The notes: a model not told the origin generated them from the letters alone. A stretch of 64,000 bases of DNA from Escherichia coli (GCF_036507355.1 NZ_AP027877.1); one strand, 5' to 3'. Positions 12,749-62,610 are shown, counted from the first letter of the stretch. Numbers and translations: made by a program.

Positions 12749-14182
12749 ATGAAAGTAACGCTGCCAGAGTTTGAACGAGCAGGAGTGATGGTGGTTGGTG
12801 ATGTGATGCTGGATCGTTACTGGTACGGTCCCACCAGCCGTATCTCGCCGGAAGCGCCGGTGCCCGTGGTTAAAGTGAATACCATCGAAGAACGCCCGGG
12901 CGGCGCGGCTAACGTGGCGATGAATATCGCTTCTCTCGGTGCTAATGCACGTCTGGTCGGGTTGACGGGCATTGACGATGCAGCGCGCGCGCTGAGTAAA
13001 TCTCTGGCCGACGTCAACGTCAAATGCGACTTCGTTTCTGTACCGACGCATCCGACCATCACCAAATTACGGGTACTTTCCCGCAACCAACAGCTGATCC
13101 GTCTGGATTTTGAAGAAGGTTTTGAAGGTGTTGATCCGCAGCCGCTGCACGAGCGGATTAATCAGGCGCTGAGTTCGATTGGCGCGCTGGTGCTTTCTGA
13201 CTACGCCAAAGGTGCGCTGGCAAGCGTACAGCAGATGATCCAACTGGCGCGTAAAGCGGGCGTTCCGGTGCTGATTGATCCAAAAGGTACCGATTTTGAG
13301 CGCTACCGCGGCGCTACGCTGTTAACGCCGAATCTCTCGGAATTTGAAGCTGTTGTCGGTAAATGTAAGACCGAAGAAGAGATTGTTGAGCGCGGCATGA
13401 AACTGATTGCCGATTACGAACTCTCGGCTCTGTTAGTGACCCGTTCCGAACAGGGTATGTCGCTGCTGCAACCGGGTAAAGCGCCGCTGCATATGCCAAC
13501 CCAAGCGCAGGAAGTGTATGACGTTACCGGTGCGGGCGACACGGTGATTGGCGTCCTGGCGGCAACGCTGGCAGCGGGTAATTCGCTGGAAGAAGCCTGC
13601 TTCTTTGCCAATGCGGCGGCTGGTGTGGTGGTCGGCAAACTGGGGACGTCCACGGTTTCGCCGATCGAGCTGGAAAACGCTGTACGTGGACGCGCAGATA
13701 CCGGCTTTGGCGTGATGACCGAAGAGGAACTGAAGCTGGCTGTAGCGGCAGCGCGTAAACGTGGTGAAAAAGTGGTAATGACCAACGGTGTCTTCGATAT
13801 CCTACATGCCGGACACGTCTCTTATCTGGCAAATGCCCGCAAGCTGGGTGACCGCTTGATTGTTGCCGTCAACAGCGATGCCTCCACCAAACGGCTGAAA
13901 GGGGATTCCCGCCCGGTAAACCCACTCGAACAGCGTATGATTGTGCTGGGCGCACTGGAAGCGGTCGACTGGGTAGTGTCGTTTGAAGAAGACACGCCGC
14001 AGCGTCTGATCGCCGGGATCCTGCCAGACCTGCTGGTGAAAGGCGGTGACTACAAACCGGAAGAGATCGCCGGGAGTAAAGAAGTCTGGGCCAACGGCGG
14101 CGAAGTGTTGGTGCTCAACTTTGAAGACGGTTGCTCGACCACTAACATTATCAAGAAGATCCAACAGGATAAAAAAGGCTAA
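12749..14182 (+). CDS. hldE: Bifunctional D-beta-D-heptose 7-phosphate kinase / heptose 1-phosphate adenylyltransferase
   Basis: 477 aa; N-terminal ribokinase-like domain and C-terminal cytidylyltransferase motif [12 protein letters not shown]. Confidence 0.93.
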
Positions 14183-14261
14183 CCGGAAAGCGGTTCACAG
14201 ATCTCGCTTCGTACATGGCAGGCCTATTGACGCTGTTGTTTTTTCAACCTAGAGTAAAGGA

Positions 14262-14410
14262 ACAAGGGTAAGGGAGGATTTCTCCCCCCTCTGATGAGTT
14301 GTTAGTAAGTCGGGAAACTTAACAGTAACAACACAACCAGTATGATGACGAGCTTCATCATAACCCTTTCCTTCTATAAGGCCCCTTCCTCGGGAGGGGC
14401 TTTCCCGTTT
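14262..14410 (+). ncRNA. sibE: Sib-family antisense sRNA (antitoxin), copy proximal to hldE
   Basis: Promoter TTGACG(14227-32)-17 bp-TAGAGT(14250-55); terminator hairpin gcccctTcc/ggaggggc + U-tract at 14380-14410; fully antisense to the ibs ORF; ends approximate; D/E naming by synteny only. Confidence 0.7.
14302..14361 (-). CDS. ibsE: Ibs-family type I toxin, 19 aa (MMKLVIILVVLLLLSFPTY)
   Basis: Hand-translated minus-strand ORF, ATG 14361 to TAA 14302-04; hydrophobic 19-mer typical of Ibs; below ORF-track size cut-off. Confidence 0.75.
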   Translation of the reverse strand: MMKLVIILVVLLLLSFPTY

Positions 14411-14637
14411 CAGCCCCTTGCTGTCTCCCCGATTGTTGATGAGCGCCGGACCCCGCGCAACGCTTTCCCTGAAGCAGTTTTGCCTTCCCCGAGCGGTCAC
14501 GCAAAACGCTGCAACGTCCTGAGCATTTGCACCTTTTAGCGGAACGCAGATATAAAAAATCCCCGGCTTTTTGGGCCAGGGATATGTGTTAATGAAACCT
14601 TCTTGACGCTGATTTTTTTTCAACCTAAAGTAAAGGA

Positions 14638-14786
14638 ACAAGGGTGAGGGAGGATTTCTCCCCCCTCTGATTGGCTGTTAATAAGCTGCGAAACTTACGA
14701 GTAACAACACAATCAGTATGATGACGAGCTTCATCATAACCCTTTCCTTCTGTAAGGCCCCTTCCTCGGGAGGGGCTTTCCCGTTT
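14638..14786 (+). ncRNA. sibD: Sib-family antisense sRNA (antitoxin), copy proximal to yqiK
   Basis: Promoter TTGACG(14603-08)-17 bp-TAAAGT(14626-31); same terminator hairpin at 14756-14786; antisense to second ibs ORF. Confidence 0.7.
14678..14737 (-). CDS. ibsD: Ibs-family type I toxin, 19 aa (MMKLVIILIVLLLVSFAAY)
   Basis: Hand-translated minus-strand ORF, ATG 14737 to TAA 14678-80; paralog of the copy at 14302..14361. Confidence 0.75.
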   Translation of the reverse strand: MMKLVIILIVLLLVSFAAY

Positions 14787-14929
14787 CAGCCCTTTGCTGA
14801 CTCCCCGATTGTTGATGAGCGCCGGACCTCGCGCAACGCTTTCCCTGAAGCAGTTTTGCCTTCCCCGAGCAGTCACGCAAAACGCTGCAACAGCCTGATC
14901 ATTTGCACCTTTTAGCGGAACGCAGATAT

Positions 14930-14965
14930 AAAAAATCCCCGGCTTTTTGTGCCAGGGATGTTCAT
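14930..14965 (-). terminator. Intrinsic terminator downstream of yqiK
   Basis: Minus-strand hairpin cccuggc/gccgggg followed by AUUUUUUAU directly after the yqiK stop; a near-identical copy lies at 14555-14590. Confidence 0.6.
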
Positions 14966-14975
14966 AGCTGAAAAT

Positions 14976-16637
14976 TTATTCTACGTTTTCGGCGACGGGA
15001 GTTGTTGAGGTTAAGGGTGAAGTCAATGCAGCCAGTGAGCCGCCTGAAACGCCAATTTCATTGAGCAAGGAGTCAATCAGTGGTGCCTGTGTGCGGTAAG
15101 AGAGTGCGGCTGATAATGCTTGTTCCGCCAGGTTTCCGCCCCCCACATTACCCGTGTTTGCATCCCCCGCAGTACCACCACGATTCAGTCCATCGACCTG
15201 TATGATCTTAATACCATCGATCGACTTCATCGGCTCAACGGATTTCTCAATTACCGCAGGCAGCGCCTGCAATAATGCCAGTTTGAATTTAAGGCTGGTT
15301 TGTTCATCAGAAAGTACGTTGATAGCATCGTTCAGCGCACGTTGCGCTTCTGCTTCCGCCAGACCCTTTTTACGTGTAGCTTCGGCTAACTCAACGATAG
15401 CCGCCGCCTGCATCTCTGCGGCTTCTTTTTCTGCTTTTGCCCGCACGGTCAGTTCAACCGCTTTGGTTTCTGCATCCTGCGCGGCAGCGATTAGGGCAAC
15501 TTGTTTAGCACGATCGGCTTCTGCGGTCTGGCGAGTGGTTCCAACGTTTTGTTGGGCGCTTACTGCTTCTGCGAGTGCAAGGTTAGCACGCGCTTCTGCC
15601 TGGGACTGTTGTTCCGATTTGGCGGCAATAGCGATCGATTTCGTCTGGTTAGCGATTTCGGTGACCTGCTGCTGTTCGATCTCTTTAATGCGAACTTCAC
15701 GTTCAGCTTCAACTTTTCTTGAGCGGACGGCCTGTTCGCGGTCGATTTCTGTTTCCTGAATCTGTCGTTCAGCCAGAATTCGCGTCTGCTCTGCTTCACG
15801 ACGACGTTCAGCTTCAAAAGCCGCAATTTTCGCATTCTGCTCAGCGGTACGGGTTTTAACCTGCTGCTCCTGCTCAAGCGTCATAAACGCTTCTTGTTGT
15901 TCAATCTCCAACTTGCGCGAAAGTGCATCACGGTTTTTCTCACGCACCGCAACTTCTACATCCTGTTCAACTTCGTTACGCTCGCGGCGACGGCGCTCCG
16001 TCTCCTGAGTCAGTTTGGTTAAACCTTCGGCGTCAAAGGCATTGTTCGGATTGAAATGTTCTTTCGAGGTCTGGTTAAAGTTGGTAAGTGAAACGCTTTC
16101 CAGTTCCAGGCCGTTTTTCGACAGATCTTCAGCTACGGTATTTTGTACTCCCTGCACGAAGTTCTCGCGGGTATCCTGTAACTCATGCATGGTCATTTGT
16201 GCAGCTGTTGCACGGAGGGCATCGACGAATTTATCTTCAACCAACATACGTAAATCTTCTGGTGATAGCGTGCGTTGCCCCAACGTTTGGGCAGCGGTGG
16301 CAATCCCTTCTACTGAAGGTTTTACCCGCACAAAGAAAGCGACTACTACATCGACGCGCATACGATCTTTCGTAATCAGGCTATCAATGGTTGAGCGGCT
16401 GACTTCCAGCTTCAGAGTATTCATATTGATGGGGATTATTTCATGAAAGATCGGCATCACGATTGCGCCACCGCTCATTACCACTTTTTGCCCACCTAAA
16501 CCAGTACGAACAAAAGCTTGCTCTGCCGAAGCTCGACGATAGAGCCTGGCGAAAATAATTCCAATAATAAACAGAATGCATACGGCAATAATCGCGGTAA
16601 ACATCCAGGAGGGCACAGAATTAACAATATCATCCAT
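14976..16637 (-). CDS. yqiK: Flotillin-like SPFH/band-7 family membrane protein
   Basis: 553 aa; N-terminal TM helix, SPFH domain, long Ala/Glu/Lys/Arg-rich coiled-coil. Confidence 0.9.
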   Translation of the reverse strand: MDDIVNSVPSWMFTAIIAVCILFIIGIIFARLYRRASAEQAFVRTGLGGQKVVMSGGAIVMPIFHEIIPINMNTLKLEVSRSTIDSLITKDRMRVDVVVAFFVRVKPSVEGIATAAQTLGQRTLSPEDLRMLVEDKFVDALRATAAQMTMHELQDTRENFVQGVQNTVAEDLSKNGLELESVSLTNFNQTSKEHFNPNNAFDAEGLTKLTQETERRRRERNEVEQDVEVAVREKNRDALSRKLEIEQQEAFMTLEQEQQVKTRTAEQNAKIAAFEAERRREAEQTRILAERQIQETEIDREQAVRSRKVEAEREVRIKEIEQQQVTEIANQTKSIAIAAKSEQQSQAEARANLALAEAVSAQQNVGTTRQTAEADRAKQVALIAAAQDAETKAVELTVRAKAEKEAAEMQAAAIVELAEATRKKGLAEAEAQRALNDAINVLSDEQTSLKFKLALLQALPAVIEKSVEPMKSIDGIKIIQVDGLNRGGTAGDANTGNVGGGNLAEQALSAALSYRTQAPLIDSLLNEIGVSGGSLAALTSPLTSTTPVAENVE

Positions 16638-18989: not shown

Positions 18990-19247
18990 GAATCCGCTTA
19001 TTCTCAGGGCGGGGCGAAATTCCCCACCGGCGGTAAATCAACTCAGTTGAAAGCCCGCGAGCGCTTTGGGTGCGAACTCAAAGGACAGCAGATCCGGTGT
19101 AATTCCGGGGCCGACGGTTAGAGTCCGGATGGGAGAGAGTAACGATTCTGTCGGGCATGGACCCGCTCACGTTATTTTGGCTATATGCCGCCACTCCTAA
19201 GACTGCCCTGATTCTGGTAACCATAATTTTAGTGAGGTTTTTTTACC
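18990..19247 (+). promoter_or_regulatory. ribB 5' leader with FMN riboswitch (RFN element / sroG)
   Basis: Conserved RFN segments aggGCGGGGCGAAATTCCCCACCGGCGGTAAA ... GCCCGCGAGCGC ... CAGCAGATCCGGTGTAATTCCGGGGCCGACGGT ... AGTCCGGATGGGAGAGAG directly upstream of ribB; ends approximate. Confidence 0.8.
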
Positions 19248-45582: not shown

Positions 45583-45686
45583 ACGTTCCTCCTTTATATG
45601 AACTCACCGGAGCAGGCTCCGGTGAGGTGTTGTGAACTTAAGTCTGGACGAAATGCCCGAAAACGAAAGTTTGAGGCGTAAAAAGC

Positions 45687-51396: not shown

Positions 51397-51615
51397 GCCT
51401 GATGCGCTACGCTCATCAGGCCTACAAAATCTATTGCAACATGTTGAATCTTCGTGCGTTTGTAGGCCGGATAAGGCGTTCACGCCGCATCCGGCATTAG
51501 GTGCTCAATGCCTGATGCGCTACGCTTATCAGGCCTACAAAATCTATTGCAACATGTTGAATCTTCATGCGTTTGTAGGCGGATAAGGCGTTTTCGCCAC
51601 ATCAGGTAAGAGTGA
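51397..51615. repeat. BIME-type REP cluster: two tandem ~113-bp units
   Basis: gcctgatgcgctacgctYatcaggcctacaaaatctattgcaacatgttgaatcttcRtgcgtttgtaggc... repeated at 51397 and 51510. Confidence 0.85.
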
Positions 51616-62499: not shown

Positions 62500-62610
62500 C
62501 TTTCGTAGGTCTGATAAGACGCGGCAGCGTCGCATCAGGCATTGTGCTCGATTGCCGGATGCGGCGTGAACGCCTTATCCGGCCTGGATGGCTTGCTGCG
62601 ACGAACGCTA
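62500..62610. repeat. REP element(s) between hybG and yghU
   Basis: gtaggtctgataagacgcggcagcgtcgcatcaggc and gccggatgcggcgtgaacgccttatccggcc palindromic units. Confidence 0.75.

What the first reader, a model, noticed from the sequence alone, without database searches (positions are those of the whole stretch)
14227..14975. Tandem pair of Sib/Ibs type I toxin-antitoxin units with diverged toxin C-termini
Two ~377-bp units lie head to tail between hldE and yqiK. Each has a near-consensus sigma70 promoter on the + strand driving an sRNA that ends at a hairpin terminator, and on the opposite strand a 19-codon hydrophobic ORF (Ibs-like toxin), not in the ORF track because of its size. The two toxins differ at the C-terminus (LLLLSFPTY versus LLLVSFAAY) and the -10 hexamers differ (TAGAGT versus TAAAGT), while the rest of the unit is nearly identical. 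That pattern would be expected if each antisense RNA must stay matched to its own toxin mRNA.
Basis: partly seen in the sequence, partly recalled or inferred. Interest (0 to 1): 0.5.

Follow-up and report, generated by a model that had tools for sequence, protein, structure and literature searches.

The report
Known E. coli sibE/ibsE–sibD/ibsD toxin-antitoxin pair

Summary
Window 14227-14975 is the E. coli hldE-yqiK intergenic region. It carries sibE/ibsE (unit 1) and sibD/ibsD (unit 2), two head-to-tail copies with a 376-bp period. Both units match Rfam SIB_RNA far above threshold (141 and 147.7 bits; gathering score 56). Both encode a 19-codon hydrophobic ORF on the opposite strand, with a Shine-Dalgarno sequence and an ATG start. 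NCBI's PGAP genome-annotation pipeline annotates both as Ibs toxins. From the sib promoters through the ibs ORFs the window is identical to K-12, where expression, toxicity and cognate-only repression have been shown experimentally. Primer sequences from Han et al. 2010 place SibD at 14638-14782 and the ibsD mRNA at 14801-14640. The D/E differences are not enriched across the antisense overlap as a whole (p=0.27). They cluster in one ~44-nt block around target-recognition domain 1 (TRD1) of the Sib RNA, and that block is fixed between the two paralogs in every strain sampled. The -10 difference is only a polymorphism. About 72% of 5,426 complete E. coli genomes carry the two-unit junction. A small strain-specific point is that SibE and SibD here differ by a single A/G in TRD2, which might weaken their discrimination. 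Interest is low.

The parts
14227..14255 (+). sibE promoter: -35 TTGACG (14227-14232), 17-nt spacer, -10 TAGAGT (14250-14255)
   Evidence: Promoter scan. Identical to K-12. The homologous 35-bp sibD minimal promoter is experimentally sufficient for transcription.
14262..14406 (+). SibE antitoxin RNA, about 145 nt, starting at +1 A in ACAAGGGTAAGGG and ending after the hairpin 14378-14403
   Evidence: The ends were transferred by homology from the SibD ends given by Han et al. primers. Rfam RF00113 scores 141 bits. The fold gives -51.8 kcal/mol, z=-3.2, with P1 stem, internal hairpins, single-stranded J1/7 and terminator.
14308..14330 (+). SibE TRD1 homolog (SibC +46..+68; P5 loop), antisense to ibsE codons 11-18
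   Evidence: Mapped from Han et al. coordinates and primers. It has 5 of 23 differences from SibD. Non-cognate duplexes are -17 to -19 kcal/mol against -37 to -39 for cognate pairs.
14361..14379 (+). SibE TRD2 homolog (SibC +99..+115; J1/7), antisense to the ibsE Shine-Dalgarno sequence and start codon
   Evidence: It differs from SibD at one position only (14376, A versus G). K-12 SibE differs from the window here (CTTATACAA versus CTTCTATAA).
14302..14361 (-). ibsE toxin CDS, 19 codons plus stop: MMKLVIILVVLLLLSFPTY
   Evidence: PGAP names it ibsE, WP_010723221.1, in the O145 strain and in K-12. GRAVY hydrophobicity index is 2.25; the Shine-Dalgarno GAAGGA lies at 14374-14369.
14264..14425 (-). 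ibsE mRNA, inferred by homology with ibsD: +1 at about 14425 and 3' end at about 14264. Its inferred promoter lies upstream at 14432-14460: -35 TTGCGC (14460-14455), -10 AACAAT (14437-14432).
   Evidence: Inference from the 376-nt register with the ibsD mRNA ends. The promoter hexamers were read directly from the sequence.
14559..14583 (-). Duplicated copy of the yqiK-type intrinsic terminator (ATCCCTGGCCCAAAAAGCCGGGGAT followed by TTTTTT), lying between the two units
   Evidence: Terminator scan.
14603..14631 (+). sibD promoter: -35 TTGACG, 17-nt spacer, -10 TAAAGT
   Evidence: Identical to K-12. [quoted passage not shown]
14638..14782 (+). SibD antitoxin RNA, 145 nt; TRD1 at 14684-14706, TRD2 at 14737-14755, terminator hairpin at 14754-14779
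   Evidence: Han et al. primers AatIID-F and SibDSmaIERI map to 14638 and 14782. Rfam scores 147.7 bits. The fold gives -54.7 kcal/mol, z=-4.1.
14678..14737 (-). ibsD toxin CDS, 19 codons plus stop: MMKLVIILIVLLLVSFAAY
   Evidence: PGAP lists it as WP_001387081.1 in the O145 strain and in K-12. The SibDKO1 primer maps here.
14640..14801 (-). ibsD mRNA, 162 nt here and 163 nt in K-12
   Evidence: Han et al. primers ERI-T7-ibsD (+1) and ibsD+163 were mapped onto the window. The fold gives -67.3 kcal/mol, z=-5.5.
14808..14836 (-). Inferred ibsD promoter: -35 TTGCGC (14836-14831), 17-nt spacer, -10 AACAAT (14813-14808)
   Evidence: Read from the sequence, placed 6 nt upstream of the primer-extension +1 used by Han et al.. 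It is weak (7 of 12 consensus positions) and was not picked up by the scan.
14935..14959 (-). yqiK intrinsic terminator. It insulates ibsD from yqiK read-through and marks the right end of the repeat.

Best explanation
The region holds two complete type I toxin-antitoxin modules of the Ibs/Sib family: sibE/ibsE (hldE-proximal) and sibD/ibsD (yqiK-proximal). They arose by a 376-bp tandem duplication that also copied the yqiK terminator.

In each unit a constitutive sigma-70 promoter on the + strand starts a ~145-nt Sib RNA at an A, and the RNA ends at an intrinsic terminator. On the - strand a weak promoter makes a ~162-nt ibs mRNA that is almost entirely overlapped by Sib. This mRNA encodes a 19-residue hydrophobic peptide.

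Sib contacts its own ibs mRNA first at two exposed sites. TRD1 is the P5 loop and pairs within the 3' half of the ORF. TRD2 is the single-stranded J1/7 segment and pairs over the Shine-Dalgarno sequence and start codon. Pairing then spreads, which blocks translation and leads to mRNA decay. [quoted passage not shown]

The two copies are kept apart mainly by the ~44-nt divergent block around TRD1. That block necessarily also changes the toxin C-terminus.

Shown here: the anatomy, the identity with K-12, the folds and the clustering of differences. Taken from published K-12 experiments: expression, toxicity, cognate-only repression, the TRD1/TRD2 roles and NAD capping at +1A. Inferred: the ibsE mRNA ends and the ibs promoter hexamers, that the same behaviour holds in this strain, and that selection for discrimination maintains the TRD1 divergence.
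For: - Rfam SIB_RNA scores 141 and 147.7 bits against a gathering score of 56.
- The direct repeat has a 376-bp period.
- Both 19-codon ORFs have a Shine-Dalgarno sequence and an ATG start.
- PGAP annotates both as Ibs toxins, with the same protein accessions as in K-12.
- The window is identical to K-12 over 14183-14373 and 14478-14757.
- Han et al. primers map exactly and fix the ends of SibD and the ibsD mRNA.
- The predicted folds reproduce the published P1 / J1/7 / terminator architecture, with z-scores of -3.2, -4.1 and -5.5.
- The literature covers five Sib/Ibs pairs, ~140-nt RNAs, 18-19 aa toxins and cognate-only repression. It also covers TRD1/TRD2 swaps that switch specificity to ibsD, the sibD 35-bp promoter and +1A start, and the presence of ibsD and ibsE in the yqiK-rfaE region.
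- TRD1 is enriched for differences (p=0.011 with coordinates fixed beforehand). The TRD1 block is 22.5% diverged between paralogs but only 1.4-2.0% between orthologs in 9 strains.
Against: - Nothing contradicts the identification.
- No expression or toxicity data exist for this particular strain.
- The terminator scan did not flag the Sib terminators.
- The ibs promoter is weak and is only inferred.
- Selection for discrimination is not proven. TRD2 differs by a single base here, and in strain MRSN346647 not at all.
- The a-priori TRD1 enrichment is modest. The stronger p=1e-4 uses a block I chose after seeing the data.
Confidence: 0.97

Rival explanations
1. The D/E sequence differences are neutral drift since an old duplication, with gene conversion homogenising other parts of the unit. 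On this view they are not maintained by selection for orthogonal Sib-ibs recognition.
For: - TRD2 is not consistently different. The SibE J1/7 alleles are CAT in the window, AAC in K-12 and CGT (identical to SibD) in MRSN346647.
- The overlap as a whole is not enriched for differences (p=0.27).
- The region upstream of ibs is mosaic, with a paralog/ortholog distance ratio of only ~1.4-3.2 against ~11-16 for TRD1. This is compatible with conversion erasing differences elsewhere.
Against: - The TRD1 block is fixed as E-type or D-type in all 9 two-unit strains while evolving very little within each type.
- The block includes synonymous and 3'-UTR changes as well as amino-acid changes.
- Swapping TRD1 or TRD2 changes specificity experimentally.
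Confidence: 0.3
2. One of the two units is a decaying, non-functional copy.
For: About 28% of complete E. coli genomes lack the inter-unit junction, so they manage with one unit.
Against: - Both units keep an intact promoter, +1A, fold, terminator, Shine-Dalgarno sequence, start codon and 19-codon ORF.
- Both are identical to the K-12 copies, which are expressed.
- Ortholog divergence is very low.
Confidence: 0.03
3. The real genes are the longer mechanical ORFs that cross the units: 65 aa on the + strand at 14342-14539 and 14718-14915, and 130 and 83 aa on the - strand.
For: These ORFs appear in the ORF list, and the two 65-aa copies are similar to each other.
Against: - The + strand ORF is 59, 27 or 96 aa long in other strains because of indels.
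- It has no Shine-Dalgarno sequence.
- It would have to read through the Sib terminator.
- PGAP does not annotate it in any of 13 genomes.
- The similarity of the two copies is explained by the DNA repeat.
Confidence: 0.01

Closest known systems
sibD/ibsD and sibE/ibsE of E. coli K-12 MG1655 (Fozo et al. 2008, Mol Microbiol 70:1076; Han et al. 2010, NAR 38:5851)
   Same: The locus (hldE/rfaE-yqiK), order and orientation are the same. Sequence is identical for both sib promoters, both Sib bodies up to J1/7 and both ibs ORFs. The toxin proteins are the same (WP_010723221.1 and WP_001387081.1).
   Different: - The SibE J1/7 (TRD2 core) is CTTCTATAA here and CTTATACAA in K-12.
- One base differs in each terminator loop.
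- K-12 SibD has one extra C in the terminator stem.
- About 20 substitutions lie in the ibs promoter and upstream regions.
- The yqiK 3' flank differs.
sibC/ibsC of E. coli K-12, the mechanistic model of the family
   Same: It has the same architecture of P1-P7, TRD1 in the P5 loop and TRD2 in J1/7, with an antisense 19-codon toxin.
   Different: It is a single copy at another locus. Its TRD1 and TRD2 sequences differ, and its transcript starts 2 nt further downstream (AAGGG rather than ACAAGGG).
Other tandemly duplicated type I loci: ldr/rdl in K-12 and zorO-orzO/zorP-orzP in EHEC
   Same: These are also small hydrophobic toxins with an sRNA antitoxin, duplicated within one intergenic region.
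   Different: The sequence families are unrelated. The Orz sRNAs are divergently encoded and pair only with the 5' UTR, not with the whole mRNA.
Salmonella ibsA in the same yqiK-rfaE region
   Same: It is the orthologous locus and encodes a 19-aa Ibs toxin.
   Different: It is a single copy. It is reported to inhibit FoF1 ATP synthase, which has not been tested for E. coli IbsD or IbsE.

Membership tests
Sib antitoxin RNA (Rfam RF00113 SIB_RNA) | Covariance-model match above the curated gathering score | tested here: met
   141 and 147.7 bits against a gathering score of 56, over the full model 1-147. Note that model positions 1-30 are the promoter, so the hit coordinates start ~35 nt upstream of the transcript.
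Sib antitoxin RNA (Rfam RF00113 SIB_RNA) | A ~140-nt transcript with its own promoter and intrinsic terminator, folding into a P1-closed multibranch with single-stranded J1/7 | tested here: met
   The promoters have 9 of 12 consensus matches. The 145-nt folds have z-scores of -3.2 and -4.1 and an 11-bp terminator hairpin. The ends were mapped from published primers. Actual transcription in this strain was not tested.
Ibs type I toxin | An 18-19 residue, highly hydrophobic ORF with a ribosome-binding site, encoded antisense to and wholly inside the sib gene | tested here: met
   The 19-codon ORFs lie at 14302-14361 and 14678-14737 with GRAVY 2.25 and 2.59, preceded by GAAGGA, 7 nt, then ATG. 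PGAP labels them 'type I toxin-antitoxin system toxin IbsE / Ibs family toxin'.
Ibs/Sib type I toxin-antitoxin system | Overexpressed Ibs is toxic, and the cognate Sib RNA rescues the cells | not testable with these tools
   This was shown in K-12 for identical toxin and Sib core sequences (Fozo 2008, as cited; Han 2010).
sibD/ibsD-sibE/ibsE locus specifically | Synteny between hldE (rfaE) and yqiK, with two units in tandem | tested here: met
   hldE lies at 12749-14182 (+) and yqiK at 14976-16637 (-). The literature states the same. The junction is present in 3,929 of 5,426 genomes.
sibD/ibsD-sibE/ibsE locus specifically | D- and E-specific recognition sequences (TRD1 and TRD2) as in K-12 | tested here: inconclusive
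   TRD1 of both units and TRD2 of SibD are identical to K-12. TRD2 of SibE differs from K-12 at 2 of 3 diagnostic bases and is only 1 nt from SibD.

The most novel reading that the evidence does not exclude
In this EHEC-like lineage the two modules may not be fully orthogonal. The J1/7 (TRD2) core of SibE differs from that of SibD by one A/G. SibD can therefore pair with the ibsE translation-initiation region through a G·U wobble as stably as SibE itself (-27.7 kcal/mol for both, against about -19 for the non-cognate K-12 pairs). Han et al. found that either TRD alone suffices for repression. SibD might therefore back up SibE in one direction, and strains with identical TRD2 (such as MRSN346647) would rely on TRD1 alone. 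More broadly, the locus would be a natural series of alleles shaped by gene conversion around a protected TRD1 block, with repeated loss of a unit through unequal crossover.
Probability: 0.25. Interest if true: 0.25.

Novelty: already known. Interest (0 to 1): 0.08.

Why it matters
It matters little as a discovery. The locus, both RNAs, both toxins, their cognate specificity and the sequence elements that set it were published in 2008-2010, and current genome annotation already names the toxins. The value here is as a positive control: a reader working from raw sequence found a 19-codon gene pair that ORF callers miss. The strain comparison adds minor points. The TRD1 block is the only part that is consistently paralog-specific. 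TRD2 and the -10 hexamer vary among strains. About a quarter of E. coli genomes have collapsed to one, often chimeric, unit.

Tried and rejected
1. Fozo et al. 2008 could not be retrieved by PubMed id or by my guessed PMC id. I relied on papers that cite it.
2. TRD2 alone is also not enriched (1/19).
3. I considered whether the changes at 14296/14297/14299 and 14337 are compensatory pairs in one stem. The two MFE folds use different registers there, so there is no clean covariation and I dropped the idea.
4. I considered the + strand 65-aa ORFs as genes and rejected them, because their length is not conserved.
5. I considered the promoter-like site inside SibE (14319-14346). It is absent from unit 2 and is probably chance.
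6. I considered that the single-unit state is ancestral. This is disfavoured: single-unit strains carry either E-type or D-type TRD1, and 3 of the 4 have an E-type left end with a D-type right end at different breakpoints.
7. I did not attempt allele-by-allele population counts of SibE TRD2. BLAST trims mismatches near query ends, and the neighbouring polymorphisms multiply the number of queries needed.

Full report
**Observation**

The window between hldE (12749-14182, + strand) and yqiK (14976-16637, - strand) contains a direct repeat at 14227-14526 and 14603-14902. It is 93% identical with a spacing of 376 bp. In ungapped register the homology runs 14227-14583 against 14603-14959, with 23 mismatches in 357. 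It decays in the 19-nt junction that follows.

Rfam's SIB_RNA model (RF00113) matches both copies end to end, at 141 and 147.7 bits against a gathering score of 56. The E-values are 4e-29 and 9e-31 for the whole 64-kb window.

The + strand promoters are TTGACG-17-TAGAGT and TTGACG-17-TAAAGT. On the minus strand, 14302-14361 encodes MMKLVIILVVLLLLSFPTY and 14678-14737 encodes MMKLVIILIVLLLVSFAAY. Each is preceded by GAAGGA, 7 nt, then ATGATG.

Small corrections:
- The period is 376, not ~377.
- The toxins also differ at residue 9 (V versus I).
- The simple terminator scan does not flag the Sib terminators because their T-run is interrupted. Folding nevertheless shows an 11-bp hairpin at the 3' end of each RNA.

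**Identity**

A 1-kb query across the region hits 5,425 of 5,426 complete E. coli genomes. The best match is 99.9%, to O145 strain RM9872, and K-12 derivatives match at about 95.7%. In both of those genomes PGAP annotates the two mini-ORFs as 'type I toxin-antitoxin system toxin IbsE' (WP_010723221.1, hldE-proximal) and 'Ibs family toxin' (WP_001387081.1).

A three-way alignment shows the window is identical to K-12 over 14183-14373 and 14478-14757. Those intervals cover both sib promoters, both Sib bodies up to the J1/7 segment and both ibs ORFs.

Primer sequences in Table 1 of Han et al. 2010 (PMC2943612) map exactly onto unit 2. These include the SibD-specific TRD1 primer (GTTAATAAGCTGCGAAACTTACGAG) and the sibD/ibsD knockout primers. 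Unit 2 is therefore sibD/ibsD and unit 1 is sibE/ibsE.

The same primers fix the ends:
- SibD +1 is at 14638 (ACAAGGGTGAGGG) and its 3' end is at 14782, giving 145 nt.
- The ibsD mRNA +1 is at 14801 on the minus strand and its 3' end is at 14640, giving 162 nt here and 163 nt in K-12.
- By the 376-nt register, SibE is 14262-14406 and the ibsE mRNA is about 14425-14264.
- Six nucleotides upstream of the ibsD +1 lies AACAAT, and 17 nt further upstream lies TTGCGC. This is a weak promoter that I infer from the sequence.

A 2025 preprint states explicitly that the yqiK-rfaE intergenic region of MG1655 contains ibsD and ibsE, citing Fozo et al. 2008. Fozo et al. 2010 note that ibs-sib loci are duplicated within one intergenic region.

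**Anatomy of the 376-bp unit**

Only about 200 bp of each unit is the sib/ibs module. The rest is the region upstream of ibs plus a minus-strand intrinsic terminator (ATCCCTGGC-loop-GCCGGGGAT followed by T6), found at 14959-14935 and again at 14583-14559. The copy next to yqiK is yqiK's own terminator, so the duplication carried that terminator with it. As a result each ibs promoter is insulated from upstream minus-strand transcription.

**Mechanism**

Both Sib RNAs fold better than shuffled controls (-51.8 and -54.7 kcal/mol; z = -3.2 and -4.1). The folds match the published architecture: a closing P1 stem, internal hairpins, a single-stranded J1/7 segment and the terminator. The ibsD mRNA folds at -67.3 kcal/mol, z = -5.5.

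The following comes from the literature on K-12:
- All five Sib RNAs are ~140 nt. The Ibs peptides are 18-19 residues and lethal when over-expressed, and repression is cognate-specific except for ibsA.
- SibC has two independent target-recognition domains. TRD1 (+46 to +68, P5 loop) pairs within the ORF. TRD2 (+99 to +115, J1/7) pairs with the translation-initiation region.
- Replacing either domain with the SibD version redirects repression to ibsD.
- The 35-bp sibD promoter is sufficient for transcription. SibD and SibE start with A and are largely NAD-capped in stationary phase, and ppGpp and DksA raise their transcription.

Because the window is identical to K-12 across these elements, I take the same mechanism to apply here. 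That step is an inference.

A cis-encoded antisense RNA is always complementary to its own target, so 'staying matched' needs no explanation. Discrimination from the sister copy is the real question.

With Han et al.'s TRD1 coordinates fixed beforehand, the count is 5/23 against 18/334 (p=0.011). TRD2 has 1/19. A block I chose after seeing the data, 14295-14338, holds 10 of the 23 differences (p=1e-4).

In the CDS the differences fall in six codons:
- Four codons change the amino acid (V9I, L14V, P17A, T18A).
- Two codons change only synonymously, and codon 17 carries an additional third-position change.
- Three more differences lie just 3' of the stop codon.

This argues that the divergence is at the RNA level and not only in the peptide.

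**Comparison across strains**

I compared 9 two-unit strains and 4 single-unit strains.
- The TRD1 block is 22.5% diverged between paralogs within a genome, but only 1.4-2.0% between orthologs.
- The region upstream of ibs is 7.7% diverged between paralogs against 2.4-5.7% between orthologs, and it is visibly mosaic.
- The -10 G/A difference is polymorphic in unit 1, so it is not a D/E character.
- The SibE J1/7 allele is CAT in the window, AAC in K-12 and CGT (identical to SibD) in strain MRSN346647.

Duplex calculations give strong TRD1 discrimination: -17 to -19 kcal/mol for non-cognate pairs against -37 to -39 for cognate pairs. For TRD2 in this strain, SibD×ibsE equals the cognate value (-27.7) through a G·U wobble. 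In K-12 the non-cognate TRD2 pairs are about -19.

This is the only strain-specific oddity, and it suggests possible one-way cross-protection. Against it, Han et al. note that SibA cannot repress ibsE although SibA and SibE share this region.

**Copy number**

A 54-nt query specific to the inter-unit junction is found in 3,929 of 5,426 genomes, at ≥99% identity in 3,866 of them. A few genomes hold two junctions. The duplication is therefore old and probably arose once, and about 28% of genomes have one unit.

Single-unit strains carry E-type or D-type TRD1. Three of the four have an E-type left end and a D-type right end, with different breakpoints. That is the product expected from independent unequal crossovers between the repeats.

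**Rivals**

- A decaying copy is unlikely, because all signals are intact and conserved.
- The long mechanical ORFs across the repeat are not conserved in length (59, 27 or 96 aa elsewhere) and are never annotated.
- Neutral drift combined with gene conversion remains a live alternative to selection for orthogonality, as an explanation of the pattern of differences. I rate it at about 0.3.

**Verdict**

The feature is already known as sibE/ibsE plus sibD/ibsD. Interest is low (0.08). The most novel reading still open is relaxed orthogonality through the near-identical TRD2 in this lineage (probability ~0.25, modest interest).

Noticed in passing
window 14227-14376 and 14603-14752: The Rfam RF00113 model begins at the -35 hexamer. 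Model positions 1-30 are promoter, and the model stops before the terminator. Rfam hit coordinates are therefore shifted about 35 nt upstream of the real Sib transcripts (14262-14406 and 14638-14782).
   Followed up: yes
window 14319-14346 (+): A promoter-like site, TTAACA-16-TATGAT (10 of 12 consensus positions), lies inside the SibE body. The homologous site in SibD is degraded (TTACGA). It is probably a chance match.
   Followed up: partly
window 14181-14195 (-): A terminator-like hairpin plus T-run on the minus strand overlaps the hldE stop codon. It would stop ibsE read-through into hldE antisense.
   Followed up: no
window 14342-14539 and 14718-14915 (+): Mechanical 65-aa ORFs start at the palindromic ATGATGA of the P6 hairpin. 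Their length is 59, 27 or 96 aa in other strains, so they are not coding.
   Followed up: yes
window 14960-14990; L002 1361-1400: The sequence just right of unit 2, which includes the yqiK 3' end, differs sharply between the window (GTTCATAGCTGAAAAT) and K-12 (TATTCCTGGAAGAGGGT). The YqiK protein accessions differ among strains. This may be a recombination boundary.
   Followed up: no
L003, L011, L012, L013 (single-unit strains): About 28% of complete E. coli genomes have a single ibs/sib unit at this locus, and the units are mosaic. S65EC has an E-type left end and a D-type right end. HCM-27C-1 switches type inside the promoter or 5' end. SCU-111 has D-type TRD1 with the K-12 E-type J1/7. Jnd12 has a third TRD1 type, with a toxin ending in SFQAY.
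   Followed up: partly
L004-L010 unit 1 (window equivalent 14352): In 7 of the 9 two-unit strains compared, IbsE has Phe at residue 4 (MMKFVIIL...). The window and K-12 have Leu, as IbsD does, which may reflect gene conversion from unit 2.
   Followed up: no
window 18996-19144 (+); 45621-45684 (-); 51465-51535 (+); 62508-62584 (-): Other Rfam hits above gathering score are an FMN riboswitch, the ES173 sRNA and two naRNA4 copies. No tRNA genes were found in the window.
   Followed up: no
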